From an uncultured Gammaproteobacteria bacterium (GTDB taxonomy: Bacteria > Patescibacteriota > Microgenomatia > Levybacterales > GWA1-39-11), in contig CAYVKP010000001.1 in the NCBI GenBank assembly GCA_964452165.1, forward strand, positions 1,715-65,714: 64,000 nucleotides of DNA, in the 5' to 3' direction. The stretch's first letter is position 1. Every line of letters starts with the position of its first letter. Shown here piece by piece: positions 1 through 39,694 of the stretch. The position numbers and the translations under genes were made by a program. Under the pieces are notes generated by a model that saw nothing but the letters and a program-made list of their open reading frames with translations, had not been told where the DNA came from and did no database searches.

Positions 1-212
1 TCACCGGGTTCCCTACCCGCCACTATACAATTCACCTTACGGCAAATCGCTTTTATAGCAAGGTTTCCTATCCTTTGCAGATAGGTGGGTTTCCCCATTC
101 GGACACCAACGGATCAAAGAGTCATAGGTCTCTCCCCGTCGATTTTCGCGTACCTTGAAGCGTCCTTCTTCGGTCAATACTTCCTAGGCATCCACTAATG
201 ACATTAAAAATA
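1..212 (-). rRNA. rrl: 23S ribosomal RNA, 5' portion; gene continues beyond the window start
   Basis: Reverse complement reads GGATGCCTAGGAAGT...GAAGAAGGACGC...CCGAATGGGGAAACCCACC...GGGAACCCGGTGA, matching the conserved 5' domain of bacterial 23S rRNA. Exact 5' end is uncertain by ~15 nt. Confidence 0.85.
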
Positions 213-515
213 GCGTAGATTTTAAAAAATCAAAACTTATGTTCCGGCAAAGGACATAAGAAACTCGATCCCCGAGTTTTTGGCCTAGTTGTACTCAAAT
301 TAATATTTTACTCCGACTACTGCGTCGGAAATTATTTGAGAAAACAATATTTTATATATAAACCCCAATTGTCAATGTGCGGCTCTATAATATACTTTTG
401 TCTCGTCCCAAGTATATTGCCCTTGGCGACGAGGCAGAAATATACTAAATCTGCCTTAAAAATTAAGTGTGCTTGCACTGAGACCCACCTTTTCGAAGAA
501 AGGGTGAGTCGAAGT

Positions 516-588
516 GGACCCAAGGAGATTCGGACTCCTGACCTCCTCGTTGCAAACGAGGCGCACTACCAGCTGTGCTATGGGCCCG
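516..588 (-). tRNA. tRNA-Ala (anticodon TGC)
   Basis: Reverse complement GGGCCCATAGCACAGCTGGTAGTGCGCCTCGTTTGCAACGAGGAGGTCAGGAGTTCGAATCTCCTTGGGTCCA folds as a cloverleaf. Anticodon loop is TTTGCAA. It sits directly upstream of the 23S gene, as in rRNA operon spacers. Confidence 0.85.
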
Positions 589-5444: not shown

Positions 5445-5885
5445 CTATTTATAGTAGGATTTGATTTGGAATAAGATGTAGAAAGCAATTGCTGCTCCAA
5501 CAAGTCCTCCAAGTGATAAGGAAACTACGTTTGAAACAACGTTTACTACCTCACTCCAAAATAAAAATGTCCAACCGGACATTTTGTGAGCCTTGGTTCC
5601 AGGAAAGGAAGCCAAAAGCAATGCGCTTGAAACTAAGAAAAGGAGTGATCCAATTACGCCATTACCCGCTTGTCCGACTCCTGCTCCGAGAGCAACAAAA
5701 GGAGCCAGGAATGTAAGAATTCCAAAAGCTGCAACCGCTGTCACAACTCCTAAAATTCCAAAGACTAATGATATCCAGGGTGTAATTTTTACTATAACTT
5801 CAGTCCAATTTTTTGGTAACGGTGGAAGCTTTTTAAATTGTACCTCCATCATTTCTATTAATTGATTTGCGTCTGTTTTTGCCAT
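5445..5885 (-). CDS. hypothetical membrane protein
   Basis: 146-aa ORF with multiple TM helices (GILGVVTAVAAFGILTFLAPFVALGAG). Confidence 0.45.
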   Translation of the reverse strand: MAKTDANQLIEMMEVQFKKLPPLPKNWTEVIVKITPWISLVFGILGVVTAVAAFGILTFLAPFVALGAGVGQAGNGVIGSLLFLVSSALLLASFPGTKAHKMSGWTFLFWSEVVNVVSNVVSLSLGGLVGAAIAFYILFQIKSYYK

Positions 5886-14860: not shown

Positions 14861-15643
14861 ATGCCGACGCGTACAACAAAAACCTCTTCTGCCTCCAAAG
14901 AAAATTTAATTGACAAAGCATCTACTATGCAGGCTCCTCAATTTACTTATTTCTTGCTTCTTATCGTTGTCTTTGTTCTTGGATATTTTGTTGCCCGCGT
15001 TCAATTTTTTGAAAAAGGTAATGGCGGAACTACTCCAACAACCGCACCTTCTGGGCAAGCTGCTGCGCCACAAGCACCATCTGTTCCTGATCCAAAAGAT
15101 GTTTTGAAGAAGATTACCAACGGCCATTTTCCAGTTAAGGGAAACTCCAACGCCAAAGTTAAGATTGTAGAATTTGCAGACTTCCGCTGCCCATTCTGTG
15201 AAAGATTCTTCACTGATACTGAGGGACAATTGATAAAAGATTACGTTGATACAGGAAAAGTAGCCTTTATTTTCAGGCAGTATGAATTCCTTGGTGCAGC
15301 ATCTGTCGTTGCCGGAAACGCAGCCGAATGTGCAAACGAGCAAGGAAAATTCTGGGAATACCACGACTGGCTTTACAAAAACCAGCCTGATGAAAGCGAT
15401 ACCTCAATGTTCAACACGGATTCCATGACTACCGCCGCAGTCTCTCTTGGAATGAACGGTGATCAATTTAGAAGCTGTCTTTCAGCAAATAAATACAATG
15501 CCAACCTCCAAAAAGATTTATCAGAAGGACAAAGCATTGGAGTCTCCGGAACACCAACTTTCTATGTTAACGGTCAACAATTAGTTGGAGCACAACCATA
15601 CACAGCCTTCAAAGCAATAATAGACACAGAGCTCAAGAAATAA
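14861..15643 (+). CDS. DsbA-family thiol:disulfide oxidoreductase with N-terminal membrane anchor
   Basis: CPFC active site within a thioredoxin fold and an N-terminal TM helix. Start may be the internal Met (MQAPQF...). Confidence 0.75.
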   Translation: MPTRTTKTSSASKENLIDKASTMQAPQFTYFLLLIVVFVLGYFVARVQFFEKGNGGTTPTTAPSGQAAAPQAPSVPDPKDVLKKITNGHFPVKGNSNAKVKIVEFADFRCPFCERFFTDTEGQLIKDYVDTGKVAFIFRQYEFLGAASVVAGNAAECANEQGKFWEYHDWLYKNQPDESDTSMFNTDSMTTAAVSLGMNGDQFRSCLSANKYNANLQKDLSEGQSIGVSGTPTFYVNGQQLVGAQPYTAFKAIIDTELKK

Positions 15644-17012: not shown

Positions 17013-18112
17013 TTTGCTATTTTTGTGACGAATTCTTTTATCTTCTTATCAAAAATCTCCGAACTGAACTTTTGGGCTTGATGGCGACACACTTCCGAAC
17101 TGAACTTGGATGCTTCGAACTTTTTGATAGCTGAATTTAAACTTTCCGGAGTATTCTCATCAAAAAATATTCCGGTTTTTCCATCAACCACAGTCTCTTT
17201 TACTCCCCCAGACTTGTAGGCAATAACGGGCGTGCCCACAGCTTGCGCTTCAACCGGAGTTATTCCAAAATCCTCATCAAATGAAGCAAAAACGTAAGCC
17301 TTTGCTTCTGTCATTAAGCGCGATCGCGCATCATCTGTCACTTCTCCCACAAATTCAATATTGGATTTTGCAATTTTTCGCAACTCCTCATCAAATCCGG
17401 CGAATCCTTTACCAAAAATCTTAAGTTTTTTTCCGTTTTCATTAAAGGCCTTGATAATAATATCCGTTCCTTTAGCACGAGCAAGTCTTCCACCCGTCAG
17501 ATAGTAATTCTGCTTTTTAACTTTCGTAGGACTTTCTGGAATATCGACCGGGGGATTAATAACAACTGCATCTTTTCTATAAAACTTTTGAATTCTAGCT
17601 TTAATCTCTTCTGAATTTGCAATAAAGTAATCAACATTCTCAGAAGCTTTAAAATCTAAAAGTCTTAAGAAGTGGTTTGTGATTGTTCCAAAAAAATTCA
17701 TGAGGTGGTCTTTTTTCCACTCACGCGCTGTCATATAACCGTATAAATATCTTGGCGGCGTGTGAGTGTAGCAAATAAGTTTTGTCTTTGGTCCTTTCTG
17801 TGTTAGATTCGGGAAATACGCTCCGGTTTGCGAAACAATAATTACATCAAAATCATCTAGAACAAAGCTCCAAAAAGCAAAAGGCGAGAGCAATCGGAAG
17901 ACAGAAATCAATTTCTCGCGATATGGAATTAAATTGAGAAATGAGGCGCGAACATTCATTTTTACAAAGCTTGCTCCGTGGGGACCAAGAAATTCAGGTG
18001 CGAAAATTGAAGTGAAAATGGGCGCCTCAGGAAACAACTCATGGAGCTCCTCCAAGACCCTCTCTGCTCCACCGTATTCTTTTATATAATCGTGAACAAT
18101 AGCTATTTTCAT
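17009..18112 (-). CDS. glycosyltransferase family 4 (GT-B fold)
   Basis: C-terminal EDFGITPVEAQAVGTPVIA motif (the E-X7-E region of GT4). Confidence 0.75.
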   Translation of the reverse strand: MKIAIVHDYIKEYGGAERVLEELHELFPEAPIFTSIFAPEFLGPHGASFVKMNVRASFLNLIPYREKLISVFRLLSPFAFWSFVLDDFDVIIVSQTGAYFPNLTQKGPKTKLICYTHTPPRYLYGYMTAREWKKDHLMNFFGTITNHFLRLLDFKASENVDYFIANSEEIKARIQKFYRKDAVVINPPVDIPESPTKVKKQNYYLTGGRLARAKGTDIIIKAFNENGKKLKIFGKGFAGFDEELRKIAKSNIEFVGEVTDDARSRLMTEAKAYVFASFDEDFGITPVEAQAVGTPVIAYKSGGVKETVVDGKTGIFFDENTPESLNSAIKKFEASKFSSEVCRHQAQKFSSEIFDKKIKEFVTKIAK

Positions 18113-19038
18113 ATAAGTTTCATCTGATTTTGCTTTTTAGTTTCGGCTTTTTGCACAAATACCTCATCTACTCTCTTTGGCAAGGTTTTGAATTCGAATT
18201 CTTCAAGTGCTTTTTTGAACCCATCGACGTCAATTTTTGAAGCAAGACAATCATCAAAGTCACATGAAAAAGGCGCATCGGTCAAAATAGTCGCAAGAGT
18301 GTGAGAAATTTGTCCTGACTCTGCCCCATCAATCAATTTTTGGGCCAAATTTTTATTTTTAACCGCAATCTCATCTAAGTGCTTGTAAATATTGTCAAAA
18401 TTTCCATACGCATTAATCAAAGTTGCCGCGGTTTTGGGGCCGACACCCGGAACTCCGGGATAATTATCCGATGCGTCACCTGTCAAAGACTTTAAGTCTA
18501 TTATTTGCGCCGGATCTACTCCATATTGAGCACGGACTGATTCTTCATCGTGAATCTTAACCTCTGAAATTCCTTTTATAGGCATTAATACTAAAGTCTT
18601 ATGATTCACAAGCTGTAACATATCGCGATCTCCCGTCACAACATAAACGATATTTCCCATATCTTTTGCCCTGTGCGCCAAAGTTCCAATCACATCATCT
18701 GCCTCAAATCCATCTACTCCAATTTGCATAATTTTTGCTTTATTTAAAATTTCAATGATTGCCCCGAACTGATCAGATAGGTCTGACTCCATCTTTGGAC
18801 GTTGTGCTTGATAGCCAACGTACATTTGCTGACGGAAAGTTGGCTTTGGGCGGTCAAAAGCAACCACAACATGAGCCGGTTTTAGCTGCTGAAATAGTTT
18901 TAAAAACATTCCGAAGAATCCTGAAATTGCGCCTGTCGGGACTCCGGCCGAAGTTGTAAACGGAGGCATTGAATGATACGCGCGGTGGACAAGTGCCGAA
19001 CCGTCAATAAGCATAAAAACTTCCTTTTTAGCTTCCAT
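18109..19038 (-). CDS. 5'-3' exonuclease / flap endonuclease (Pol I N-terminal domain-like)
   Basis: Conserved LIDGSALVHRAYH, FDRPKPTFR, GFEADDVIGTLA and GDRD motifs. The likely start is the internal Met (MEAKKEV...); the long ORF extends to 19140. Confidence 0.8.
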   Translation of the reverse strand: MEAKKEVFMLIDGSALVHRAYHSMPPFTTSAGVPTGAISGFFGMFLKLFQQLKPAHVVVAFDRPKPTFRQQMYVGYQAQRPKMESDLSDQFGAIIEILNKAKIMQIGVDGFEADDVIGTLAHRAKDMGNIVYVVTGDRDMLQLVNHKTLVLMPIKGISEVKIHDEESVRAQYGVDPAQIIDLKSLTGDASDNYPGVPGVGPKTAATLINAYGNFDNIYKHLDEIAVKNKNLAQKLIDGAESGQISHTLATILTDAPFSCDFDDCLASKIDVDGFKKALEEFEFKTLPKRVDEVFVQKAETKKQNQMKLI

Positions 19039-19410
19039 TGACCATATTATACAGGAGTTTTTGCCAATAAAAAGGGCGGTTGAGGAAGAAAAGTGAAAAT
19101 CATCATGAAGATGAAGCAAGTAGCATAAGCTACAGGTCACGATTCTATCAAACCGCCCTTTCGAACTCAGTTCGCATTGTAAGATTCATCCCGCCGGAAA
19201 GAAGGTGAGCAAGCATGTAGCTCAGTTTCTACCCAAAGGGATATACACCTGGAAGGTGAAGGATCTTACAAAGAGTGTCTCCAGAGGAGACAGGTACAAG
19301 GCAATCGCCTTGTGGTCCTGTCGTCCTCCTTCGACGCTTTGGGACGCACCTATGTGGTCCGGCTGGCAGCTAGGCTGTCAGACGTACGACATCAGGCCGT
19401 GTCCGTGAGA

Positions 19411-20835
19411 TCACCTGCGGACAACCGTCGCGACCGCGGCACCGGAGATGAGGAGAACCACCATGACACCAGCAACGATGGTCCAGATCGAACTCGAGGA
19501 GGAGCTCATGGCAAGACCTGCGTCACCGGTAGCCGGTGGCTTGATCGAAGGCGTCAGCGGCGCGTCGGCGGTGTCCACGGGGCGTGGAGCCGGTTCGGAG
19601 CCGTTGTAGTAGCCGTTGATCGCGGGCGTGTCAGCGTCACCAGCGTTCGTCGTGGTGCGACCATCGAACGTCGAGGACGTAGGAATGGGCACGTTAGATG
19701 CCGAAGGTGACTGTGCGAAGGCATCGTTCGTCGAGAAGACGTTGCTACTGACGAGCGGAGCCGGACCCTGACCCGTTGCGTAGTCCTTGACGGTGACCGT
19801 GTCTGTCGCCTGAGCGTTCACAGGATCGCTAGACGCCGTGTCGGCCGTCGTGTTGGACTGGTTGACCACGTAGACAGCGATGCAGAAGCCGGAGGGGTTC
19901 TCAGGCGCAGCGCATGCGGTCTTGGAGGCGACAGCGACGATCAGCAGACACGTAGTGCCAGGTGACGCCGTAGCGCAGCCGTTGTTGGTCAGGTTGTTCG
20001 TGTTCTGGCCGGCCAGGTTCGGCAGGCTCAGGTAGTTCGCCAGGCCAGGGTTCGAAGCGCCGATGACGACGGCGTCGAGCTGGCTGAAGTTAAGCAGACC
20101 CTGTTGTACCACGGGAAGTACGCCGAGAATTCGGCCGTCGATCAGGACCGTCAAGTGAGCGTTCGGGATCGACACAGCGTCGCGGATGTCGAGAACAGCG
20201 CCGTCAGAGCCAGCGGCCGGGACGAGTGCGTTCGTGACGTCGTTGACAGAGTTGCCCCTATTCGTGGCCTTCTCGTCACCGGTGGGGCTCGTCTGGTATG
20301 CAGCGACCGTGATGGATGCCGGCAGGCCAGTAAGCCTTAACGTGGCGGTAAGGACGATGTTCGGCACGCCGAGGTAGTTCGGCAGGCTCAGGTTGTTACC
20401 CAGCGGGTAGTTGGACTCCTGGACGTTGGTCTTGCCGAGAGTCGTTCCGGGGGCCATGTTGGTGCCCGAGTTGGCCAGGTTGGCCAGGTTCAGTTGGCTA
20501 ACGACTACGTAGTCGATGCCACTGCTGGAGAACGTAACGACCTTTTCGGCGAGGAGGATACCTCCAGGATCCGATCCGGTGTAGACGTCGTGCAACGAGT
20601 TGTTCGTCTGGACGGTCGACGCCGCAATACCTGGGGTCGAGTCAGACGTTGCCGCGGCAGTAGGAGCCGGCGAAGTCCAGAAGGCCGTCAAGCCAAACAG
20701 AACTGCTACCGTTACTGCCAGGGCGAAGAGCTTTGCCAGCGACACGCGCGGAGGCGGGTCCTGATAGTTGGTTGTGTGTCTGGTTTTCACCGGACACTCC
20801 TTTCCTTGCAAGGAAATGCCTGCATTCTGCAGCAT
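19411..20835 (-). CDS. cell-surface protein with signal peptide, internal repeats and a sortase-like C-terminal sorting signal
   Basis: N-terminal TM/signal (LFALAVTVAVLFGLTAFW). Internal repeats LSLPNYLGVPNIV and LSLPNLAGQNTNN in Ala/Thr/Ser/Asn-rich sequence. The C-terminus is KPPATGDAG, then a Ser stretch, a hydrophobic helix and RR, i.e. an LPXTG-type tripartite architecture with P in place of L. Confidence 0.55.
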   Translation of the reverse strand: MLQNAGISLQGKECPVKTRHTTNYQDPPPRVSLAKLFALAVTVAVLFGLTAFWTSPAPTAAATSDSTPGIAASTVQTNNSLHDVYTGSDPGGILLAEKVVTFSSSGIDYVVVSQLNLANLANSGTNMAPGTTLGKTNVQESNYPLGNNLSLPNYLGVPNIVLTATLRLTGLPASITVAAYQTSPTGDEKATNRGNSVNDVTNALVPAAGSDGAVLDIRDAVSIPNAHLTVLIDGRILGVLPVVQQGLLNFSQLDAVVIGASNPGLANYLSLPNLAGQNTNNLTNNGCATASPGTTCLLIVAVASKTACAAPENPSGFCIAVYVVNQSNTTADTASSDPVNAQATDTVTVKDYATGQGPAPLVSSNVFSTNDAFAQSPSASNVPIPTSSTFDGRTTTNAGDADTPAINGYYNGSEPAPRPVDTADAPLTPSIKPPATGDAGLAMSSSSSSIWTIVAGVMVVLLISGAAVATVVRR

Positions 20836-20839
20836 GGGT

Positions 20840-22900
20840 TGTGAAAAGAACGTTCCTCCCTCGCACCTTGCGAGATAGATCTTAGCTCTAAGCTATCCAC
20901 TTTGTGTACGGGTGTCTTTCCGGCGTCTGTCCTCGATGCCTCCCTCGGATGAGATCACTGCTGAGAACATCAAGGGCCAGGCCTTTCAGACTTTCCCGAA
21001 CTTTCGAGATCATCCCCTTTCAGTACTGCCTCTACGGTCAGTACTCTATTTCCAAGAGCTTGCCGAAGCGGGCGGCGGATCACAAGGCTACGCGGGGTGT
21101 ACCCGTTTCAGACTCGCTCTGAGAAAGCATTGGAGGGACGCCCCTTTTCCCTACGGACCAATCCGGCACTTTGCCGAACTTAAAATGTGTTGGGACGTCC
21201 CCTGATGATTAGCAGGTCTTCGATTCAAGCGAACACGTGCCCTGCACGTAATGCGTACAAATCCGCTCGTTTTCCGTTCAGCCGAATGCGTTGACGCACG
21301 GTTGATCTTTGACCTGCTCGTGGGAGCTCACCTCATCAGGGTGGCTTCTGGTAGTGATGCACCTTGCATCTCCTTTCTATTGATAGTAATCATCTCCGAC
21401 CCGAGCACCGAGAGCAGACTTTCGTCGCTGGCTCGACAACCGGAGAGAATCCCCTTAGTGGGAGACGTCCCATTTTTACTTACCCCACAAATGCCCGTCG
21501 TAAAGACAGGTTCCTCCTTTCTGAACTAGGAGCTGGACGCGGGACGTCTCCGGCGGCAATGGGTTTAGACAGTCAATACGAACCCTCCTTTCAGGGTTAT
21601 TCAGATAAGGCTCCGGGGAGTGAGCCTGGATCTGGCTGGTGGGAGGTAGCAGCAATAGACAGGGGGACAGGACCCTGTACTCGGCGCTTACTGCTACCAG
21701 ATGGTTTGGGAGGAACCCTACCATCCTTTTCCCAAGAACGTGCAAGTCCGAGGATTTCTCCTTGGACTGGGAATGGCTATGGAGACCATGGAGCGATGGG
21801 TCCAGAGGGCCTCCTGGTTGTTAGGGCGGAGCTCTTATCCGTGTCAGTGCGTTGTAGACATTTGCACTTTCCATGGCACCCTTCCTCTTTCGAGAATGGC
21901 TGGAGATCCGGCCTCGTACGAGTGGTCGCCTCTTATGAGGACTGAGCAGCTGGCTGCAACCAGACTTTTATATCTCAGCAACGACCATAGGCTGTGCTGC
22001 CATTAGGGCGGAGAGCGTGACCGGGTCACTATGCAAACGCGTCTGTTAAGAAGCGTCCACTTCCGGTTTACCTCCACCATACTCGACTCCTCCCTTCGAG
22101 TCTTCCTAGATAAGGTCTCAGCACTAGACCTGGATCTGGCTGGCGGGGTACGGCAGCTGAAACACGAATGCGATCGTGACACCACTGCCTAAAGATGGGT
22201 TCCAAGCCATCCTTTCCCCGATGAAAAGTGCAGTCTCCTCACGATGAGAAGACGTAGTTTTCCAGGAGGTGAAGGTCTCTTCACTTGCGCAGGCCACCAC
22301 GCGAAGAGAGCTTGCACCACTAGCCTGGTGAGTGTCGTCAACCGCCATACCACAGATCGTGGTAGTCCAGCACAAGGCGGAGACAAGACAACTCCTGGAC
22401 TCATCGAGATAGCAAGATGAGCCTAATTTGCGTCATTCAAGTGGAAAGCCATTCCACAAGAAAGTTATTTTGAATAACGAACAACAATAAAATAAAACTA
22501 AAATTTGATTTTTGTAAAATCCTTAAAAAAGACTCCTTCTGGAGTGTGGGGTTGTGAATTCAGACAATAAACAAACTCGTAATTATTGCCTCAGCTCACA
22601 ACCGGACACAAGCGCTATGCAAATAAGCGCTGTCAAAAGAAGTTATGCGAACTGGTTGTTAAAGTGCAAAACTTTTTTGCCAGAACGCATGCATTTGCAT
22701 AAAGGCATTATGTTATGTAATGCGAGTATATCTCTAAGGGAATTGCTTTTCAATTGGGCATTTACTGTAGCCTGAGGGGGATTGGGCGCGGGAATAGGAT
22801 ATAGATGTTTGTCTTCTTGAAGAAGACGATGCAGTTTGACTGCTACATCAGGTCCTAAACCCGCGTCCGCACCGGTTGCGAATTTATTTGTTGTAGATCA
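20840..22900. ncRNA. candidate large structured noncoding region with an internally duplicated module (strand undetermined, possibly minus)
   Basis: No ORF longer than 193 aa in ~2 kb, and the ORFs present are scattered over frames. Two homologous ~150-nt modules start at 21603 and 22108 (shared agataagg...cctggatctggctgg...gatgg...ccatcctttcc). The hairpin ggctc/gagcc in copy 1 becomes ggtct/agacc in copy 2, with three compensatory pair changes. Also contains an 11-bp inverted repeat (21460-21471 / 21531-21541) and multiple GGGACGTCCC palindromes. Confidence 0.35.
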
Positions 22901-22904
22901 CCTC

Positions 22905-24398
22905 CTATCTTCTGGTAGGAACTTGTGTCGCAAGACACTGTCCTGTCGCGATGACGTAATAGTCGCAGTTAGTCGGCGGCTGAGGATTTCCGCTTGGCTT
23001 CTGCGGCTGGACAGGCTGTTGCTGGACCGAAGGACCCGAGTTGGCCTTGCCAACAATCTGGTACGTTGCGGTGTTGCTTACGAGCGGTGTGTTGCCGTCG
23101 TATAGCGTAATCCTAAGCGTATCAGTGCCAAGTGGCGGAGCAACATTGCCCGTCGATTGACAGCCTGTGCCGGCGTTCACGTATTTGCTGACTGGCCGAG
23201 TCGCCGGACTTCCGTCTTGGGGAGAGTCGGTAACAACTATCGTACCAGCCTGCGACACATTCCAGCAGAACTTACCACTCGTGTAGACCGTTATGACTGA
23301 TGGATCAGCCCAAACGCTCACAGTAGCGGCAGGTGGTGGAGGTGCCGGACGAGATGTCGGCGCGGGTGGTGGTGCCGCGGGCGCTTGGGGCGCAGGCGGA
23401 ACCTTGGTCGCTGTTGGCGGTGGCGCTTGAACCTGCTGAACTTGCGGAGCAGGCGTTGGCGGCGTGAACGACCCAATGTTGGGTGCTGGACCCGACTTTT
23501 TTTGAATCTCAACGGAAGTGGTGTCTACCGCGACTTTCACGTCGTCGACATATGCTACTGCAGCGATGCTGTAGATGCCAGGAATGACATTGTCGACGAT
23601 TGGAATCGTGGTGCAGGACTTTTCTTCCGAAGAATACCCATTCCACAACGGCGTTGGCTCCTCTCCTTCTCGGGAGAAAGTTGAAACTACTCTGTACCAG
23701 ATCTTCTTGTTGAGCTGGAAACAAAGAGTTGCGCGGTCTCCTTCGACGTAGACGTTCTTGCCGTCATTGAACCACACTTTTAGAGTGTAGCTGAACGGAG
23801 CAGGCGTTGATGTTGCCGTTGACGGTGCCGCCTTCACCTCAGGGTGATCGTAGTCATCCCTAAGTTGGGAGTGTAACCACCCCATCACAGGTGAAAAACG
23901 ACCCTTGGTGTCAATTATGTTCGCTGGAGAAATCTGTAGGCTGGTTTGCCATTTTTCACCAACGTTCTGCTGAACGAAGGTGATTTTTCCGTTCGCCACT
24001 CCGGTGACCAGCGCCACATGTCCCCAAGGCCACTCCTCGTTTTTCCCGAAAACGAGAATGTCTCCCGGAACAGGAGCAGTTGAAGAACCGTTTTCGTACA
24101 CGTTGGCGAAGTTAATGTTGTCCTTGTTTCCAAACATCTCAAATGCATTGAGACCCCAGTTGTAAGGACCCCATTCTCTCTCGCCCCAGTAACGCTGAAC
24201 GAATTCGACGCACTGCCACTCAATACCGTACTTTGACGAACGTCCGGAGTAGTAAAACGGGTCATCTCCGTTGGAGAAGATGTCCGTTTTGTCGTAGGTT
24301 CCAAGACGCTGTCCGAATGACGACGACGCCATAACGATACCTACGAAAATGAGGGGGCTCAATCCCAGAAGGACTGCAGCCCTGACTAACCTGATCAT
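22905..24398 (-). CDS. secreted CHAP-domain peptidoglycan hydrolase with Ig-like middle region, Pro-rich linker and Cys-containing C-terminal domain
   Basis: Signal peptide (MIRLVRAAVLLGLSPLIFVGIVMA). CHAP catalytic Cys context WQCVEFVQRYW and His GHVALV. A ~45-residue P/A/Q-rich linker and a C-terminal domain of ~130 aa with 4 Cys. GC-rich codon usage. Confidence 0.7.
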   Translation of the reverse strand: MIRLVRAAVLLGLSPLIFVGIVMASSSFGQRLGTYDKTDIFSNGDDPFYYSGRSSKYGIEWQCVEFVQRYWGEREWGPYNWGLNAFEMFGNKDNINFANVYENGSSTAPVPGDILVFGKNEEWPWGHVALVTGVANGKITFVQQNVGEKWQTSLQISPANIIDTKGRFSPVMGWLHSQLRDDYDHPEVKAAPSTATSTPAPFSYTLKVWFNDGKNVYVEGDRATLCFQLNKKIWYRVVSTFSREGEEPTPLWNGYSSEEKSCTTIPIVDNVIPGIYSIAAVAYVDDVKVAVDTTSVEIQKKSGPAPNIGSFTPPTPAPQVQQVQAPPPTATKVPPAPQAPAAPPPAPTSRPAPPPPAATVSVWADPSVITVYTSGKFCWNVSQAGTIVVTDSPQDGSPATRPVSKYVNAGTGCQSTGNVAPPLGTDTLRITLYDGNTPLVSNTATYQIVGKANSGPSVQQQPVQPQKPSGNPQPPTNCDYYVIATGQCLATQVPTRR

Positions 24399-24403
24399 GA
24401 CCT

Positions 24404-24973
24404 TTACTCCTTCTCGAATTTGAAGGTACTCAGGATTTGAGGTCCGATTCCCTTCATGATATTGAACGTAGCGGATTGGCTCGGCGAAATGCCGTAAAGC
24501 CTACTACCTTCTTGAATGAACCACCTGACGTAGACAGGGTGGACGTCCGGCTGTTCAAGCCAACGCTTCTGGTTAGTAAGTTCGAGACAGCTTCCGCTTG
24601 TCAGCGTGAAGGAACAAGGGGAGAAAACCAGGCGCTTGCCCGCATCCCCGAGTTGGTCTCTAACTGAAGCCTCTACGTCGTTAGCTGATGCCACCTTTTC
24701 GTATCGAATGACAGCAAAGCCTGCGTACAACTCGCCGTCGTTCTCAAATTCCAGGTGCAAGATGTTGCCCGGATCTGTCTCGTACGTATCCTTGTGGAGA
24801 TCGAGATCCTTGATCTTTCCCGAAAGCCACCCGTCCTGGAAGTCTTCCCAGTCCGCAGTACTTGCGGTAGCCGGAATGACTGGCAGGGTAGATACTGGCT
24901 TCTTGGTCGAGCCTCCGCATGCTGCGAGCAGTGGAAGCACTAGGAGCAGTAATACCGAGACTGTCTGTCTCAC
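24404..24973 (-). CDS. lipoprotein (hypothetical)
   Basis: Lipobox LLAACGGS after a hydrophobic leader. 189 aa. Co-directional and 5 nt upstream of the CHAP gene, so a probable operon. Confidence 0.5.
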   Translation of the reverse strand: MRQTVSVLLLLVLPLLAACGGSTKKPVSTLPVIPATASTADWEDFQDGWLSGKIKDLDLHKDTYETDPGNILHLEFENDGELYAGFAVIRYEKVASANDVEASVRDQLGDAGKRLVFSPCSFTLTSGSCLELTNQKRWLEQPDVHPVYVRWFIQEGSRLYGISPSQSATFNIMKGIGPQILSTFKFEKE

Positions 24974-25391
24974 TTCGCACCTCTACCTTCCGTAGTCTAT
25001 TCGTGCTAGGTTGATATTCGACCCTGCTGGGTCTTGTGCTTTACCTTGTTTTATTTTCGTCGTCGTTCTCCTTTTTTAAATTCCGCTTCTTGGCGGAAAC
25101 TATCGTGCGTATTTTGTTTAGTCTTCTTTCGGCCGAATGCAAAATTCCGGACCCGAACTTTTTATCTGGTCAAGAACTTTGCATTCGATAAACACCTTGC
25201 TTTATAGTGCTTTCTGAAAGAAGTTTCGCAACCGGTTGTTAAAGAGCGAAAAACCTCGCGCTACAATGCATGCAAACGCACTAAGCCACGAGGAATTACT
25301 ATGTAATTGGAGTATAACGCCGTCTGAGACGGTTTTCAACTTAACACTATAAGATTTCTTTGCCCGTATTTTGAGCGAATGTGAAGGCTAT

Positions 25392-25595
25392 CTACGTTTT
25401 ACCCCACGTTACGCGGTTCCATACCCTTTCATGTAGGTAATAAAAGACTAACTTCAAAATTCCTTCGGCGCCTCCAACTCCGATTGAAAGAAGTAATTTA
25501 CGCGTGAAGACGAAAACAACCGCTGCTGTAGTAAGTGAAGCAATAATTCTCCAAGTAATAGTTTTGGCAACGCTGCGGTGGCTCTCCTCCTTCAT
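25392..25595 (-). CDS. small membrane protein, DUF2061-like
   Basis: 67 aa with two TM segments and a C-terminal YYLHERVWN-type motif, from recalled family similarity. Overlaps the stop of the upstream ATPase gene by 1 nt. Confidence 0.4.
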   Translation of the reverse strand: MKEESHRSVAKTITWRIIASLTTAAVVFVFTRKLLLSIGVGGAEGILKLVFYYLHERVWNRVTWGKT

Positions 25596-27811
25596 TAAAA
25601 TTGAGCTTTCCTACCGTAGCGCTCTTTGGAGTAACGAATAATCGCATCACGGTTTTCATTCTTAACATTTGGAAGCGGCAAGGTGGTTGCAGGGAAAGGC
25701 GCTGAGGTCATTCCGTCAATTGAAAGCTTTAAAACTATTTCAAATTTGCCAAGGGATACTAGGTCATTTTCGGTGTAAATCTCCGCATATTCCTTTGTAA
25801 GTCGCTCCGCATCTTGTGCACCGACAACAAAAGACATAAGAGTTCCGACATTTCCATAAATTGCATATTGAATCTCCTCCTCAAGCTGATCCGAATATTG
25901 ATTTGCTAAAGTCAAAGACAAGCGATATTTTCGTGCTTCGGATAGAATTTTAATGAAAGAGCTGGTTGCAAAATTTTGGAACTCATCAACGTATAGGAAA
26001 AAGTCACGTCTACTCTCCTCTTTCTGAAAAGATCTATTCATTGCAGCAAGCTGAATTTGGGTGATAACCATTGCTCCAAGAAGTGCCGCGTTATCCTCTC
26101 CTAATTTTCCCTGTGATAAATTAAGAATCAAGATTTTTCCTTCGTCCATTATCTCCTGAAGATTAATTGAAGAAGTGGGGTGGCCAATAATGTTACGGAT
26201 CATTTTTGATGAGACAAATTGTCCTACCTTGTTTTGGATTGGAGAAACAGCCTCAGCCTTTAGCTTATCCGGCATCCTGGCAAACTCAGCTTCCCAGAAA
26301 TTCTTGAGAACCGGGTCTGATAGTTTTGCAACAATTCTTGCACGAAACGCATCGTCTGATAATATTCTCAACGCGTCAATTAGAGTACCCTCCTCAACGT
26401 CGAGAAGGGTCAAAATAACATTTCGCAAGATATATTCAAGGCGCGGACCCCAAGATTCTCCATAAATCTTGTGGAAGATCGAGACAATTCCCGATGAGAC
26501 CAAGTCTTTATGCTGAGAATTACGAACCTCCAAAACGTTTAGCGAGAACGGGCGCTCGGCATCAAAAGGCTCCAGATAAACTACGTCATTGAGTCGTCTC
26601 TTTGGAATGTAATCCATAATAATCTCCGATAAATCTCCGTGAGGGTCAATGATTCCAATTCCGCGGTCTTTGCGAATATCGTCAATTGCCATGTTGGCAA
26701 TTAAAGTGGATTTTCCGGCTCCGGTTTTTCCAATAACGTAAACGTGTTTTCTCCTGTCGGGCGTTTTTATTCCAAAAATTGTTTCGGCATTTTTGAATTC
26801 GGTTTTTGCAAAAAAGTTGATATCCTTCTTTTCTTCTTCGGTAATGGCAGTTATAACCGGAAGATCTTCGGGTGGTTCTCCAAGAAGAGTCTTACCCCAA
26901 GCAATATTCTTAACCCCGGCAAGCAAGAATCCTGTGGGGTGCCAAATGGTTGCGAGTTCCTGAGCATTTAATATCTGTGTGCGCTTTTCAAGATAATAGG
27001 TTGAACGGTTTTTAATCCTTTCAATAAAGTTTTTCTTGCGGATAAGCGGACGCTTCAACTCAAATTCATTTCCGTCACCGTGAGAGAATATTCCAAACGT
27101 TCCCGCAAGATTTCGCAGATATAATCTTGGATCTGTATTTTCCGTACCTACAACTAGACGAATAAGCGCTTTTCCTCCTTGAAATGAGGCTTTTTGCATG
27201 ATTAAAAGTTGTTGTGGATCGCGGGCGTATCTGGCCGTTTCGGTACTATGTGCTTCAACCCCGGCCGTAGCAGGAGAAGTATGGGAGTCTGTTCCTGCAA
27301 GTATCATTTGCCCTGCTCGTTTTACGGCCCTTGCCTGCCAATCAAAAGACGCTGAGGTTACAAGAATCTCAACAGCCATTTTAACGTCTGCCGGCTGTTT
27401 TGCTAAGAATCCGATCAGCGCGCCTAAGGTATCTATGTCTTCAAAGTCGGCATAAGTCTTTGTTGGAAGATAAAATTCGTTATCCAGAACCAATTGACCT
27501 ACTGATATGTGCTTGCTGTCAAAAACTTTTGGCATAGGGTCCTCGGTTTTTTCAATTGATGAGGTTGGAAAAGAGGCTGCAATTTGGCTTGCGACAAAAG
27601 TCTCCTGATCTTCATCGGCCGTTACATAGAAGTAGACCGTTTGATTGATTAGAAAAATTTCGAATGAATAATAATGTGTTTTCATCCATGATCTTTTCCA
27701 GAAGGGAACATATGCATGCGATAAGCAGGAAGCAAAAATCTGTGCTGCTGAAGCAATTGGAGTCTCATCGTCCTTAGGATTTCTGACTAAAAGATGTACC
27801 AGTTTTCTCAT
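25595..27811 (-). CDS. FtsK/HerA-superfamily ATPase, TraG/VirD4 (TraD)-like or DUF87 type IV-secretion-related protein
   Basis: Walker A GKTGAGKST, Walker B FLYVDEFQNF. 738 aa with a long N-terminal region lacking TM helices and a C-terminal TraG-D_C-like region. Confidence 0.55.
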   Translation of the reverse strand: MRKLVHLLVRNPKDDETPIASAAQIFASCLSHAYVPFWKRSWMKTHYYSFEIFLINQTVYFYVTADEDQETFVASQIAASFPTSSIEKTEDPMPKVFDSKHISVGQLVLDNEFYLPTKTYADFEDIDTLGALIGFLAKQPADVKMAVEILVTSASFDWQARAVKRAGQMILAGTDSHTSPATAGVEAHSTETARYARDPQQLLIMQKASFQGGKALIRLVVGTENTDPRLYLRNLAGTFGIFSHGDGNEFELKRPLIRKKNFIERIKNRSTYYLEKRTQILNAQELATIWHPTGFLLAGVKNIAWGKTLLGEPPEDLPVITAITEEEKKDINFFAKTEFKNAETIFGIKTPDRRKHVYVIGKTGAGKSTLIANMAIDDIRKDRGIGIIDPHGDLSEIIMDYIPKRRLNDVVYLEPFDAERPFSLNVLEVRNSQHKDLVSSGIVSIFHKIYGESWGPRLEYILRNVILTLLDVEEGTLIDALRILSDDAFRARIVAKLSDPVLKNFWEAEFARMPDKLKAEAVSPIQNKVGQFVSSKMIRNIIGHPTSSINLQEIMDEGKILILNLSQGKLGEDNAALLGAMVITQIQLAAMNRSFQKEESRRDFFLYVDEFQNFATSSFIKILSEARKYRLSLTLANQYSDQLEEEIQYAIYGNVGTLMSFVVGAQDAERLTKEYAEIYTENDLVSLGKFEIVLKLSIDGMTSAPFPATTLPLPNVKNENRDAIIRYSKERYGRKAQF

Positions 27812-39344: not shown

Positions 39345-39351
39345 TTAATTG

Positions 39352-39423
39352 CGCTCCCGGCGGGAATCGAACCCACATTAGAGGATCCGGAATCCCCCGT
39401 TCTATCCGTTGAACTACGGGAGC
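39352..39423 (-). tRNA. tRNA-Arg (anticodon CCG)
   Basis: Reverse complement GCTCCCGTAGTTCAACGGATAGAACGGGGGATTCCGGATCCTCTAATGTGGGTTCGATTCCCGCCGGGAGCG. Anticodon loop TTCCGGA. Confidence 0.8.
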
Positions 39424-39451
39424 AAATGCGTCCGCGCCGAACAAAGTGAGG

Positions 39452-39536
39452 CGGAGGGTACAGGATTCGAACCTGTGAATCCCTTACAGGATCGAGTTTT
39501 CGAAACTCGTGCAATTGACCGCTATGCGAACCCTCC
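39452..39536 (-). tRNA. tRNA-Ser (anticodon CGA)
   Basis: Reverse complement GGAGGGTTCGCATAGCGGTCAATTGCACGAGTTTCGAAAACTCGATCCTGTAAGGGATTCACAGGTTCGAATCCTGTACCCTCCG with a long variable arm and anticodon loop TTCGAAA. Confidence 0.8.
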
Positions 39537-39621
39537 AAGTTTCTCCCCAAAATATAAAATTTTTGGGGACCCCGGTTTTGTTTTGAGGCCTCCATTGCTT
39601 TCGCAATGGAGAGAAAATCTG

Positions 39622-39694
39622 CGTACCCGAGAGGAATCGAACCTCCAACCGCCTGGACCGCAACCAGGTGTTCTATCCATTGAACTACGGGTAC
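39622..39694 (-). tRNA. tRNA-Arg (anticodon GCG)
   Basis: Reverse complement GTACCCGTAGTTCAATGGATAGAACACCTGGTTGCGGTCCAGGCGGTTGGAGGTTCGATTCCTCTCGGGTACG. Anticodon loop TTGCGGT. Confidence 0.75.

What the first reader, a model, noticed from the sequence alone, without database searches (positions are those of the whole stretch)
22905..24973. Secreted CHAP-domain hydrolase with proline-rich linker, co-operonic with a lipoprotein, inside the GC island
CHAP amidases/endopeptidases cleave peptidoglycan stem peptides and are classic phage endolysin or predatory/episymbiont attack enzymes. This one has a signal peptide, an Ig-like middle region, a ~45-aa P/A/Q linker and a Cys-containing C-terminal domain of unknown fold. 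It is co-transcribed with a lipoprotein gene 5 nt upstream. For an ultrasmall CPR-like cell, such a secreted wall hydrolase in a foreign-composition island could be a host-interaction or host-lysis factor, or a prophage lysis remnant.
Basis: partly seen in the sequence, partly recalled or inferred. Interest (0 to 1): 0.55.

Follow-up and report, generated by a model that had tools for sequence, protein, structure and literature searches.

The report
Mobile secreted CHAP amidase–lipoprotein gene pair
An ultrasmall Levybacteria (CPR) genome carries a horizontally spread two-gene unit, a membrane-anchored partner protein plus a secreted cysteine amidase that most likely cuts cell walls, driven by its own promoter and a previously undescribed folded RNA leader; it is not a phage remnant.

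Summary
ORF 22905-24398(-) encodes a 497-aa protein with a signal peptide and an N-terminal CHAP domain (Pfam E 8e-14; Cys63 and His127 invariant). Two homologous disulfide-bearing beta-sandwich modules follow, split by a ~57-aa Pro-rich linker. A lipobox lipoprotein gene ends 5 nt upstream. GC3 is 0.57-0.61, against 0.32-0.38 in host genes.

New points:
- The pair is an obligate module. The partner sits directly upstream of this CHAP type in all nine loci with readable downstream sequence. These come from Levybacteria, a Roizmanbacteria-like lineage and unidentified high-GC (0.57-0.59) contigs.
- The CHAP domain is closest to E. coli glutathionylspermidine amidase, not to solved phage lysins. 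No phage genes lie nearby and the signature is absent from IMG/VR.
- The module fills a variable GC-rich hotspot in 3 of 13 Levybacteria loci.
- A conserved promoter and a covarying structured leader RNA, absent from Rfam, precede it. A second copy precedes the neighbouring surface-protein unit.

Best reading (confidence ~0.5): an exported wall-peptide amidase aimed at other cells, with the anchored partner as cognate inhibitor or tether. The prophage-remnant reading is rejected. Biochemistry is untested.

The parts
25311..25339 (-). Promoter A: sigma-70-like TTGAAA-17 nt-TATACT, upstream of the operon
   Evidence: 10/12 match. An identical hexamer pair recurs at 22725-22753. The same TTGNAA-17-TATACT sits ~85-95 nt upstream of the leader core in L039, L040, L044, L023 and L033.
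25078..25305 (-). Leader A, the structured 5' UTR. It has an unpaired conserved core (25215-25252, UCGCUCUUUAACAACCGGUUGCGAAACUUCUUUC). P1 pairs CUUCUUUC with GAAAGAAG (~25126-25133). P2 is a hairpin with a GCA loop. P3 is a long hairpin (25134-25187). A TTCCGC/GCGGAA hairpin follows.
   Evidence: nhmmer E 4e-12. RNAfold z -4.77, 0/200 shuffles as stable. P1 and P2 covary across 14 instances. No Rfam match at gathering threshold.
24404..24973 (-). Partner gene: 189-aa lipoprotein (lipobox LLAAC, Cys19) with conserved Cys120-x8-Cys129 and LELT(N/D)QxxW / GIGPQILST motifs. Probable PsbP/DcrB-like fold.
   Evidence: The family is tiny: 14 real representatives in 1.84 billion proteins (P0015 is a tandem-repeat artefact). 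Remote members P0024 and P0025 pass Pfam PsbP_2 PF18933. The best PDB sequence hit is EagT6/PA0094 but is not significant (E 0.13). The AF2 model failed (pLDDT 38).
22905..24398 (-). CHAP gene, 497 aa plus stop
24327..24398 (-). Signal peptide (aa 1-24; predicted cleavage VMA|SSS)
   Evidence: Read from the sequence. All homologues have an equivalent N-terminal hydrophobic segment ending in an A-x-A-like site.
23964..24230 (-). CHAP catalytic core (Pfam match aa 57-145; folded domain ~aa 30-180). Cys63 = 24210-24212, His127 = 24018-24020, Gln143-Gln144-Asn145 = 23964-23972.
   Evidence: Pfam E 7.9e-14. C63, H127, Q144 and N145 are invariant in 10 sequences. They align to Cys59, His131 and Glu147-Gln148-Asn149 of E. 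coli Gsp amidase. AF2 pLDDT is 70-93 and Foldseek to 3a30 gives TM 0.68.
23499..23804 (-). Middle beta-sandwich module (aa 199-300; Cys226/Cys262), DUF4384-like
   Evidence: All-beta in AF2 but pLDDT <50. It aligns with the equivalent modules of P0004 and the L050 CHAP protein. It is homologous to the C-terminal module by hhalign, 92.5%.
23328..23498 (-). Pro/Ala/Gln-rich linker (aa 301-357)
   Evidence: 16 Pro in the central 42 aa. GC1 and GC2 are 0.77.
23052..23327 (-). C-terminal beta-sandwich module (aa 358-449; Cys378/Cys413), DUF4384-like
   Evidence: AF2 pLDDT 55-78, all-beta. It aligns to the modules of P0002, P0003 and the L052 protein; 4 of those match Pfam DUF4384, and P0002 passes the cut-off.
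22908..23051 (-). Q/P-rich tail ending in a Cys478-x9-Cys488 loop
   Evidence: It is variable among homologues. Function unknown.
22827..22850 (-). Weak terminator-like hairpin 55 nt after the CHAP stop
   Evidence: 8 pairs, 3 G-C, T-rich tail. A consensus match only.
22522..22753 (-). Second copy of the promoter (22725-22753) and leader B. The core is 22636-22673. The 3' strand of P1 overlaps a terminator-like hairpin ACTCC-AGAA-GGAGT + T6 at 22522-22545. This heads the neighbouring unit, not the CHAP operon.
   Evidence: E 2e-15; z -4.94.
19411..22450 (-). Neighbouring GC-rich unit in the same hotspot: ~1.6 kb of non-coding DNA (20836-22450) plus a 474-aa surface protein gene (19411-20835) with a C-terminal PATGDAGL + hydrophobic + RR tail
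   Evidence: Positional equivalents with the same tail occur in relatives L002 and L004 (AGEPGL variant in L007).

Best explanation
This is a self-contained, horizontally spread two-gene module with its own promoter and structured RNA leader. It sits in a variable hotspot between the T4CP-like ATPase gene and the 5'-3' exonuclease gene of a Levybacteria (CPR/Microgenomates) genome.

Shown by the analyses:
- Gene 1 encodes a membrane-anchored extracytoplasmic partner (a lipoprotein).
- Gene 2 follows after 5 nt, with its ribosome-binding site inside gene 1. It encodes a protein with a signal peptide and a catalytically intact CHAP cysteine amidase/peptidase of the glutathionylspermidine-amidase-like subtype (Cys63, His127, Gln143).
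- The enzyme also has two homologous beta-sandwich (DUF4384-like) modules, each with a conserved Cys pair, on a Pro-rich linker.
- The partner/enzyme pairing is conserved in every locus examined.
- The module is patchily distributed and far more diverged than its flanks.

Inferred:
- After Sec export the Cys pairs form disulfides. A DsbA-like gene lies at 14861-15643.
- The enzyme hydrolyses an amide bond of cell-wall peptide (peptidoglycan stem or cross-bridge) in other cells, either the host or competitors of this epibiont-type organism. The beta-sandwich modules act as wall or surface binders.
- The partner, tethered at the producer's own membrane next to its own peptidoglycan, binds the enzyme as a cognate inhibitor (immunity). 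Less likely, it acts as a tether or activator.
- The leader RNA gates transcription of the operon.
For: Enzyme:
- Pfam CHAP at E 8e-14, with invariant Cys and His.
- Residue-by-residue alignment and fold match to E. coli Gsp amidase: HMM E 4e-14; Foldseek E 1.5e-8, TM 0.68, 26% identity. Cys59 is the proven nucleophile of that enzyme (PMC6272389).
- PHROG endolysin profiles also match, at E 2e-11.

Export and anchoring:
- A signal peptide and a lipobox are read from the sequence.
- All 14 partner-family members have a lipobox or an N-terminal transmembrane anchor.

Obligate pair:
- The partner is immediately upstream of a WQCVE...QQN CHAP gene in the window, L041, L039, L040, L044, L050/L051, L052, L053 and L055. 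This holds down to 31% partner identity.
- The P0004 contig has the same layout, but its upstream gene could not be read.

Accessory and fast-evolving:
- Present in 3 of 13 syntenic Levybacteria loci.
- Window against L050: flanking genes 73-85% identical, partner 39%, CHAP domain 54%.

Transfer:
- GC3 is 0.57-0.61 against a host value of 0.32-0.38.
- The module is also GC-elevated in the Roizmanbacteria-like contigs.
- It occurs on uniformly GC-rich contigs, GC 0.57-0.59.
- CPR copies form one clade next to high-GC copies in rough neighbour-joining trees.

Need for self-protection: the producer makes its own peptidoglycan (MurD and a class A PBP are in the window).

Precedent: amidase effector / periplasmic immunity pairs such as Tae4/Tai4 (PMC3695027).

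Leader.
Against: - No activity, substrate or partner-enzyme interaction has been tested.
- The nearest characterised relative cleaves a glutathione-spermidine amide, not peptidoglycan.
- The third catalytic residue is Gln where Gsp amidase and LysK have Glu. That is plausible for papain-like enzymes but unproven here.
- The AF2 model of the partner failed. Its PsbP-like fold rests on remote family members only and a non-significant PDB hit.
- No orphan partner genes were seen, although these are common for immunity genes.
- Conserved adjacency equally fits an activator, chaperone or tether.
- Nothing shows that the target is a foreign cell rather than the producer's own wall.
- The elevated GC may be a property of the hotspot rather than a donor signature. 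All contents of this hotspot in relatives are GC-rich, including non-coding DNA.
Confidence: 0.5

Rival explanations
1. It is a housekeeping or conditional autolysin of the producer. The CHAP enzyme remodels the cell's own wall for growth, division or appendage insertion. The lipoprotein is its membrane tether or allosteric activator, analogous to lipoprotein- or FtsEX-controlled hydrolases.
For: The producer has its own peptidoglycan machinery. The partner is always membrane-anchored. The pairing is strictly conserved. The operon has a regulated leader. In L039 and L044 an LysM-M23 peptidase gene is next door.
Against: The module is absent from 10 of 13 syntenic Levybacteria loci. It diverges much faster than its flanks. 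The partner family has only 14 representatives in 1.84 billion proteins. It is spread across unrelated lineages.
Confidence: 0.22
2. It is a secreted amidase for a non-peptidoglycan substrate. Like its closest characterised relative, Gsp amidase, it would cleave a small-molecule or surface amide (polyamine conjugates, peptide-lipid or teichoic-type linkages) for scavenging or surface editing.
For: The best sequence and structure matches are Gsp and trypanothione amidase domains. The active-site motif WQCVEF...GHVA...(E/Q)QN is shared.
Against: The protein is exported and carries two surface-binding-type beta-sandwich modules. Endolysin profiles match at similar strength. That glutathionylspermidine is an intracellular metabolite is established knowledge, not something tested here.
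Confidence: 0.12
3. It is a VirB1-like wall-opening hydrolase of a monoderm-type type IV secretion system, working with the adjacent VirD4-like coupling ATPase.
For: The gene lies directly downstream of the 738-aa T4CP-like gene in the window, L041 and L050. Monoderm T4SS hydrolases often contain CHAP domains (PMC12102498).
Against: There is no VirB4, VirB6 or other T4SS gene in the 64-kb window. Ten relatives keep the T4CP gene without the module. In the Roizmanbacteria-like and high-GC contigs the module is not next to a T4CP gene. There is no lytic transglycosylase or lysozyme domain. T4CP homologues in this group are mostly unlinked to virB4.
Confidence: 0.06
4. It is a prophage lysis remnant or endolysin.
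For: The CHAP domain matches PHROG endolysin families (E 2e-11). The DNA composition is foreign.
Against: No phage gene lies in the neighbourhood. The protein has a signal peptide and an obligate non-phage partner. The signature is absent from IMG/VR. tblastn against 50,697 phage records finds only two Gss-type sequences, one annotated as glutathionylspermidine synthetase/amidase in a Salmonella record and one unannotated 1.7-kb record. BFVD structural matches are weaker (E >=5e-5) than the match to Gsp amidase.
Confidence: 0.03
5. It is an assembly chimera or contaminating DNA.
For: The GC content jumps sharply at about 19200 and 25000.
Against: Junction-spanning contigs come from independent Logan assemblies of two runs, and a third run's contig carries the same cassette. 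The same insertion site is used in L041 and L050/L051. The host-type promoter and leader lie inside the island.
Confidence: 0.02

Closest known systems
E. coli glutathionylspermidine synthetase/amidase, amidase (CHAP) domain (PDB 3a2z, 3a30, 2io7)
   Same: Same Pfam family and fold. The active-site motifs are shared: WQC(59)VEF, GH(131)VA, xQN. HMM E 4e-14; Foldseek TM 0.68 over ~175 residues at 26% identity.
   Different: The E. coli domain is cytoplasmic, fused to a synthetase, and acts on a small thiol-polyamine conjugate. The window protein is exported and fused to two beta-sandwich modules. It has Gln143 in place of Glu147 and comes with a membrane-anchored partner.
CHAP peptidoglycan hydrolases of phages and Gram-positive bacteria (LysK CHAPK 4csh, LysGH15 4olk, LytN, PcsB)
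   Same: Cys-His papain-like CHAP fold, modular architecture (catalytic domain plus linker plus binding modules) and extracellular action. PHROG endolysin profiles match at E 2e-11.
   Different: They are more distant than Gsp amidase (PDB HMM E 4e-6 to 4e-3; TM ~0.5). The window protein has no SH3b, LysM or other known wall-binding domain. It has a Sec signal rather than holin dependence, and there is no phage context.
Amidase effector / immunity pairs (T6SS Tae/Tai, e.g. Tae4-Tai4, PMC3695027) and bacteriolysin-immunity operons
   Same: A papain-like cell-wall amidase is encoded next to a small cognate protein. That protein is located in the compartment where the enzyme acts. The pair is patchily distributed, mobile and fast-evolving.
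   Different: There is no T6SS or T7SS here; export is by a Sec signal peptide. The partner gene lies upstream. The partner is unrelated in sequence to known Tai/Tsi proteins. Inhibition has not been shown.
PsbP_2 (PF18933) / DcrB / DUF1795 (EagT6) Mog1-PsbP-like proteins
   Same: Remote members of the partner family pass the PsbP_2 threshold. Shared motifs are an N-terminal W-x-x-Y...(I/V)-S-F-x-Y-P and a C-terminal ILSTxxF. Many members are membrane-anchored extracytoplasmic proteins.
   Different: The window protein itself has no Pfam hit. The CHAP-linked clade has an extra conserved Cys-x8-Cys...DQxxW segment. The fold is not confirmed (AF2 pLDDT 38; PDB hit E 0.13).
DUF4384 (PF14326) accessory domain of orthocaspases, Ser/Thr kinases and others
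   Same: The C-terminal module aligns with DUF4384-positive modules of the closest homologues. It is an ~90-aa all-beta module.
   Different: The window's two copies do not reach Pfam significance themselves. They carry a conserved Cys pair. The function of DUF4384 is unknown.

Membership tests
CHAP domain (Pfam PF05257) | Profile HMM match above the curated threshold | tested here: met
   52.4 bits against a cut-off of 26, E 7.9e-14, residues 57-145, profile positions 4-81 of 81.
CHAP domain (Pfam PF05257) | Catalytic Cys (in a Q-C motif) and His (in a G-H-V motif) present and aligned to proven catalytic residues | tested here: met
   Cys63 and His127 are invariant in 10 homologues. They align to Cys59 and His131 of E. 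coli Gsp amidase. Cys59 is the proven nucleophile (PMC6272389).
CHAP domain (Pfam PF05257) | Third polar residue orienting the His (Glu in Gsp amidase and LysK) plus a conserved Asn | tested here: inconclusive
   Gln143 replaces Glu147. Gln144 and Asn145 are conserved. Gln at this position is found in 9 of 10 clade members. Catalytic competence was not tested.
CHAP domain (Pfam PF05257) | Papain-like alpha+beta fold | tested here: met
   AF2 pLDDT is 70-93 over ~60-180. Foldseek top hits are Gsp amidase (TM 0.65-0.68) and LysK CHAPK (TM 0.51).
CHAP domain (Pfam PF05257) | Amidase or endopeptidase activity on peptidoglycan | not testable with these tools
   Needs a zymogram and muropeptide analysis.
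Phage endolysin / prophage lysis cassette | Phage context (holin, structural or integrase genes nearby) or homologues on viral contigs | tested here: not met
   Neighbours are housekeeping genes. There is no IMG/VR match to the signature. No true phage homologue appears among 50,697 phage records.
Bacterial lipoprotein (partner) | Signal peptide ending in a lipobox [LVI][ASTVI][GAS]C | tested here: met
   LLAAC with Cys19. A lipobox is also present in P0011, P0012, P0013, P0016 and P0022; other members have a transmembrane anchor. Lipidation itself is not testable here.
PsbP_2 / Mog1-PsbP-like fold (partner) | Profile match or fold match | tested here: inconclusive
   The window protein has no Pfam hit. 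Remote family members P0024 (33.7 bits) and P0025 (39 bits) pass the cut-off of 27. The PDB profile search gives EagT6 at E 0.13. The AF2 model is unusable.
Effector-immunity (toxin-antitoxin-like) pair for an exported wall hydrolase | Conserved adjacent co-oriented gene pair, with the small partner located in the target compartment | tested here: met
   The 5-nt spacing is the same in six loci. The pair is conserved in 9 loci with readable sequence. The partner is membrane-anchored outside the cytoplasm.
Effector-immunity (toxin-antitoxin-like) pair for an exported wall hydrolase | The partner binds and neutralises the enzyme; the enzyme is toxic without it | not testable with these tools
   No complex prediction or experiment was available.
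Effector-immunity (toxin-antitoxin-like) pair for an exported wall hydrolase | Link to a dedicated delivery system (T6SS, T7SS or CDI markers) | tested here: not met
   There is a Sec-type signal peptide only. No such genes occur in the window or in related loci.
VirB1-like hydrolase of monoderm T4SS (TraG, PrgK, CwlT type) | Encoded within a T4SS gene cluster; usually has a lytic transglycosylase or muramidase domain plus CHAP or NlpC/P60 | tested here: not met
   Only a T4CP-like gene is adjacent. There is no VirB4 or VirB6 in 64 kb. There is no glycosidase domain. The module occurs away from T4CP in other lineages.
DUF4384 (PF14326) (non-catalytic modules) | Profile match | tested here: inconclusive
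   The window's modules give no hit on their own. Four of five aligned homologous modules match (best E 3.7e-5). P0002 passes the threshold (29.9 against 27). The middle and C-terminal modules are related by hhalign at 92.5%.
Known RNA families (Rfam 15) for the leader | Covariance-model match | tested here: not met
   Nothing at gathering threshold in the window or in 8 related loci. Nothing at E<=1 in 20700-23000, which contains leader copy B.

The most novel reading that the evidence does not exclude
The T4CP/exonuclease gap of Levybacteria is a dedicated host-interaction hotspot. Interchangeable GC-rich units (the CHAP amidase with its cognate immunity lipoprotein, hypervariable sorting-signal surface proteins, a desaturase) are swapped between CPR lineages together with a shared promoter and a new riboswitch-like or attenuator leader RNA. 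In this reading the CHAP module is a CPR weapon for breaching the host wall, switched on by the signal that the leader senses.
Probability: 0.2. Interest if true: 0.75.

Novelty: new variant of a known kind. Interest (0 to 1): 0.5.

Why it matters
CPR/Patescibacteria are thought to live attached to other microbes, but few candidate host-attack or competition factors are defined outside Saccharibacteria. This locus offers three things:

- A concrete, expressible enzyme/partner pair whose bond specificity and target range can be assayed.
- An example of a secreted Gsp-amidase-type CHAP enzyme with an obligate membrane-anchored partner. I found no description of this architecture in the libraries or papers searched.
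- A covarying leader RNA absent from Rfam. It links this module to the variable surface-protein locus and could reveal what signal controls envelope and host-interaction genes in Microgenomates.

If the enzyme instead proves to be an ordinary self-autolysin, the finding reduces to a well-annotated accessory wall hydrolase.

Tried and rejected
- Rfam at gathering threshold on the window and on 8 related loci, and at E<=1 on 20700-23000: nothing but tRNAs and rRNA.
- AF2 of the lipoprotein with a 4-sequence alignment: pLDDT 38, unusable, so no fold search was run on it.
- The AFDB50 fold library was not available.
- BLASTP of the middle against the C-terminal module: not significant. Only profile-profile comparison showed the homology.
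- RNAalifold on the MAFFT alignment of 14 leaders: no consensus structure, because loop-length differences put the stems out of register. I replaced it with per-sequence stem searches against shuffles. These tests ignore relatedness: L039 and L044 are near-identical, and L023 and L008 are close.
- Exact-pattern metagenome scan with the leader core: 5 hits. Four are chance matches inside unrelated coding regions. One is a true extra copy (L048).
- IMG/VR scan and phage tblastn for the CHAP signature: no phage relatives.
- blastn, tblastx and tblastn of the 2-kb non-coding stretch against all fetched loci and proteins: no homology beyond the leader.
- P0015 (1684 aa, 28 'matches' to the partner profile) is a translated tandem repeat, not a relative.
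- An integron-like attC reading of the repeated element was considered and dropped. The core does not fit the RYYYAAC/GTTRRRY consensus (recalled from memory), no integrase ORF was seen in the ORF lists of the loci examined, and each copy has a conserved promoter at a fixed distance.
- The source genome is not in the genome collection (best T4CP match 83%). The taxon is therefore inferred from relatives.
- The listing of cluster members gave no accessions or names.


Full report
**1. What is in the sequence**

On the - strand there is a 189-aa ORF (24404..24973, GTG start) and a 497-aa ORF (22905..24398). The first ends in TAA. Five bases later (AGGTC) comes the ATG of the second, and an AAGGAG ribosome-binding site lies 8 nt upstream of that ATG inside the end of the first gene. 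The layout suits coupled translation.

The 189-aa protein begins MRQTVSVLLLLVLPLLAAC, a lipobox. The 497-aa protein begins with a basic and hydrophobic signal peptide ending VMA|SSS.

Pfam places a CHAP domain at residues 57-145 (E 7.9e-14, 52.4 bits against a cut-off of 26). The catalytic domain is therefore N-terminal, not C-terminal.

The region from about 19200 to 25000 is a GC island (0.50-0.64 against 0.40). The difference also holds at synonymous sites: GC3 is 0.61, 0.57 and 0.75 for the three island genes, against 0.32-0.38 for flanking genes. Amino-acid composition therefore does not explain it.

**2. The assembly is sound and the host is a Levybacterium**

Independent Logan assemblies of SRR9179560 and SRR9179562 span the junction from the 738-aa gene through DUF2061 into the lipoprotein and CHAP genes. 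A third run, SRR9179563, carries the same lipoprotein and CHAP genes.

The 738-aa neighbour is a VirD4/TraD-like coupling ATPase. Its closest relatives (72-83% identity) are in Candidatus Levybacteria/Levyibacteriota MAGs. The source genome itself is not in that collection.

The wider window holds ordinary housekeeping genes: RecF, NAD(P)HX dehydratase, an amino-acid kinase, a DsbA-like oxidoreductase, Fpg, NUDIX, a GT4 glycosyltransferase, a 5'-3' exonuclease, FtsH, a class I tRNA synthetase, DNA ligase, Fic, MurD, a class A PBP and Wzy_C. There is no phage gene, and no type IV secretion gene other than the coupling ATPase. The organism makes its own peptidoglycan.

**3. The enzyme**

Ten aligned relatives keep Cys63, His127, Gln144 and Asn145 invariant.

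A profile of the family hits the amidase domain of E. coli glutathionylspermidine (Gsp) synthetase/amidase best (E 4e-14), then trypanothione synthetase-amidase (1e-11). Solved lysin CHAP domains come well behind: lysin L2 at 3.6e-6, LytN at ~1.7e-5, LysK and LysGH15 at 4e-3.

In that alignment Cys63, His127 and Gln143-Gln144-Asn145 correspond to Cys59, His131 and Glu147-Gln148-Asn149. Cys59 is the experimentally established nucleophile (PMC6272389). The only departure is Gln for Glu at the residue that orients the histidine. This is shared by 9 of 10 clade members.

AlphaFold2 models residues ~60-180 with pLDDT 70-93. Foldseek against the PDB again ranks Gsp amidase first (3a30: E 1.5e-8, TM 0.68, 26% identity), ahead of CHAPK (TM 0.51). 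Viral predicted structures match more weakly (E >= 5e-5). PHROG endolysin profiles do match (E 2e-11). The domain is thus a bona fide CHAP domain of a Gsp-amidase-like subtype.

The signature WQCVE[LF][VIA]Q is absent from 2.9 million IMG/VR contigs. tblastn of the domain against 50,697 phage records returns only two Gss-type sequences.

**4. The non-catalytic part**

Seven cysteines are present. One is the catalytic Cys63. The other six form three pairs: 226/262, 378/413 and 478/488.

The 'Ig-like middle region' (199-300) and the 'C-terminal domain' (358-449) are both predicted all-beta. Confidence is low for the first and moderate for the second. BLASTP sees no similarity between them. Small alignments of each type, built with homologues, are related by hhalign (probability 92.5%, E 4.7e-7, 88 columns, Cys pairs aligned).

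Four of five C-terminal-type modules match Pfam DUF4384, and P0002 passes the threshold. The protein is therefore: signal peptide, CHAP, module, ~57-aa Pro-rich linker, module, Q/P tail with a small Cys loop.

Homologues vary in the number and kind of these modules. This is typical of enzymes whose binding part is tuned to a target surface.

**5. The partner and the pairing**

The lipoprotein has no Pfam, NCBIfam or meaningful PHROG hit.

Word-indexed searches of 5.8 billion proteins find four clusters. An exhaustive HMMER search of 1.84 billion representatives finds 15 at E <= 1e-3. One of those is a translated tandem repeat.

All members are anchored by a lipobox or an N-terminal transmembrane helix. 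They share a Cys-x8-Cys...(L/V)E(L/I/V)xDQxxW segment and a C-terminal ILST motif. Two remote members pass Pfam PsbP_2. A PDB profile search puts EagT6/PA0094 (DUF1795, the same fold class) first, but at a non-significant E of 0.13. The AF2 model failed. The PsbP-like fold is therefore probable, not shown.

The key result is context. In every locus where the downstream sequence could be read, the partner is directly followed by a WQCVE...QQN CHAP gene. These loci are the window, L041, L039, L040, L044, L050/L051, L052, L053 and L055. Six of them have the same 5-nt spacing. The pairing persists down to 31% partner identity and across hosts of very different composition.

**6. Distribution and history**

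Ten Levybacteria relatives keep FtsH, T4CP, 5'-3' exonuclease and GT4 in order but lack the module. Three lineages (window, L041, L050/L051) have it at exactly this place.

Between the window and L050 the flanking proteins are 73-85% identical, the partner 39% and the CHAP domain 54%.

The same module lies in a different context, next to an LysM-M23 gene, in contigs whose other genes resemble Roizmanbacteria-type loci. There too it is GC-richer (0.49-0.53) than its surroundings (0.31-0.41).

On three contigs of uniform GC 0.57-0.59 the module has native composition. Rough neighbour-joining trees put the CPR copies in one clade beside the high-GC copies, for both proteins.

I read this as acquisition from high-GC bacteria, followed by spread and rapid divergence within Microgenomates. 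One caution applies. Every content of this hotspot in relatives is GC-rich, including non-coding DNA. A local process, such as recombination-associated GC bias, may contribute.

**7. Regulation: a conserved promoter and a structured leader**

The scan for promoters found the same TTGAAA-17-TATACT twice. One copy lies upstream of the lipoprotein gene (25311-25339). The other lies just downstream of the CHAP gene (22725-22753).

Each is followed, at about +50, by a conserved ~38-nt core (UUGCUCUUUGAYAACCRGUUYGCGAAACUUCUUUC). An nhmmer profile finds this element in three settings:
- upstream of the module in L041, L050/L051, L039, L040, L044 and L048;
- at the hotspot of relatives L006, L007, L008, L016, L023 and L033, with weaker matches in L034 and L002;
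- once elsewhere, in L010.

Both window copies fold far better than shuffles (z -4.9 and -4.8, 0 of 200 shuffles as stable). Both adopt the same architecture:
- the 3' half of the core (CUUCUUUC) pairs with a downstream GAAAGAAG (P1);
- P1 encloses a hairpin P2, with a variable stem and a conserved UUUGCAU loop;
- P1 also encloses an optional long hairpin P3.

Per-sequence tests support both helices. P2 forms in 13 of 14 instances, with at least nine different arm sequences (combined p 4e-6). P1 forms in 14 of 14, with eleven different arm pairs. Examples are CGTCTTTCA/TGAAAGACG and CTTCCTTCG/CGAAGGAAG (combined p 5e-7). These p-values ignore relatedness and are indicative only.

In copy B the 3' strand of P1 overlaps a terminator-like hairpin followed by T6 (22522-22545). 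This suggests a terminator/antiterminator switch. Rfam has no matching family. What the unpaired core binds is unknown.

**8. Mechanism and rivals**

Shown:
- an exported, catalytically intact CHAP enzyme with two homologous beta-sandwich modules;
- an obligately linked, membrane-anchored partner;
- accessory, mobile and fast-diverging behaviour;
- its own regulated promoter.

Inferred (overall confidence ~0.5):
- the enzyme cuts cell-wall peptide bonds of other cells;
- the partner, sitting at the producer's membrane beside its own wall, is the cognate inhibitor, as in amidase effector/immunity pairs (PMC3695027).

The main rival is a self-directed autolysin with a lipoprotein tether or activator (0.22). 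It fits the anchoring and the regulation but not the patchy, fast-evolving distribution.

A non-peptidoglycan amide substrate (0.12) is kept open by the closeness to Gsp amidase.

A VirB1-like role with the adjacent coupling ATPase (0.06) is weakened in three ways. No other secretion genes are present. Ten relatives keep the ATPase without the module. Other lineages carry the module without the ATPase (background in PMC12102498).

Prophage remnant (0.03) and chimera (0.02) are effectively excluded.

**9. Verdict**

It is a new variant of a known kind. The catalytic family is classical, but I found no description in the libraries and papers searched of three features: the Gsp-amidase-like exported subtype, its obligate PsbP-like anchored partner, and the shared structured leader. 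Interest is moderate (0.5), and would be higher if the leader and hotspot prove to be a general CPR host-interaction switch.

Noticed in passing
window 25078-25339 (-) and 22522-22753 (-); also L039:~10-200, L040:~5640-5830, L044:~730-930, L041:~500-760, L050:5740-5900, L033:9260-9500, L023:12230-12430, L008:6200-6400, L006:12500-12780, L007:7100-7320, L016:12230-12460: Candidate new cis-regulatory RNA of Microgenomates, absent from Rfam. A TTGNAA-17-TATACT promoter is followed by an unpaired 38-nt conserved core. Then come helix P1 (8-14 bp, 11 different arm pairs), hairpin P2 with a conserved UUUGCAU loop (the GCA lies exactly 49 nt after UUGC in 9 of 13 copies) and an optional P3. In copy B, P1 competes with a terminator-like hairpin. 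The element precedes the CHAP module, sorting-signal surface proteins and a desaturase.
   Followed up: partly
window 20836-22450: About 1.6 kb of GC-rich (0.52-0.56) DNA lies between leader copy B and the 474-aa gene. Stop codons are at random density in all six frames. There is no Rfam hit and no homology to the equivalent region of relatives. Relatives also have 0.4-1.2 kb of GC-rich non-coding DNA in this position. Whether it is a very long 5' UTR, decayed genes or a non-conserved RNA is unexplained.
   Followed up: partly
window 19411-20835 (-); L002:6967-7863, L004:13244-13876, L007:8011-9087: Fast-evolving GC-rich surface proteins occupy the same hotspot. They share a C-terminal tail '(P/F)A(T/G)DAGL + ~25 hydrophobic residues + RR' (AGEPGL...REE in L007). 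It looks like a sorting or anchoring signal not matched by any Pfam or NCBIfam model.
   Followed up: no
gap between the T4CP-like gene (25595-27811) and the 5'-3' exonuclease gene (18109-19140); equivalents in L002-L008, L016, L023, L033, L034, L050: This is a variable hotspot in Levybacteria, 0.1 to 6.4 kb long. Its content differs between species (CHAP module, surface protein, fatty-acid desaturase, or nothing in L005). Whenever it is occupied it is GC-richer (0.47-0.52) than the genome (0.38-0.42). Recombination-associated GC bias or repeated import are possible causes.
   Followed up: partly
window 25392-25595 (-): A small DUF2061 membrane protein gene has its start codon overlapping the T4CP stop. 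It is present here but absent from the same position in L041 and L050. Its GC (0.44) is intermediate.
   Followed up: no
L048:4544-5716 (-): In the Roizmanbacteria-like lineage, an ORF with an N-terminal HTH-like segment lies ~200 bp upstream of the module's promoter on the opposite strand. By eye it looks like a transposase, but it was not scanned against any family library. It is a possible vehicle for the module.
   Followed up: no
window 1-218 (-) and 514-587 (-): The 5' end of a 23S rRNA gene and a tRNA-Ala lie at the window edge. tRNA genes (Arg, Ser, Arg) cluster at 39351-39694.
   Followed up: no
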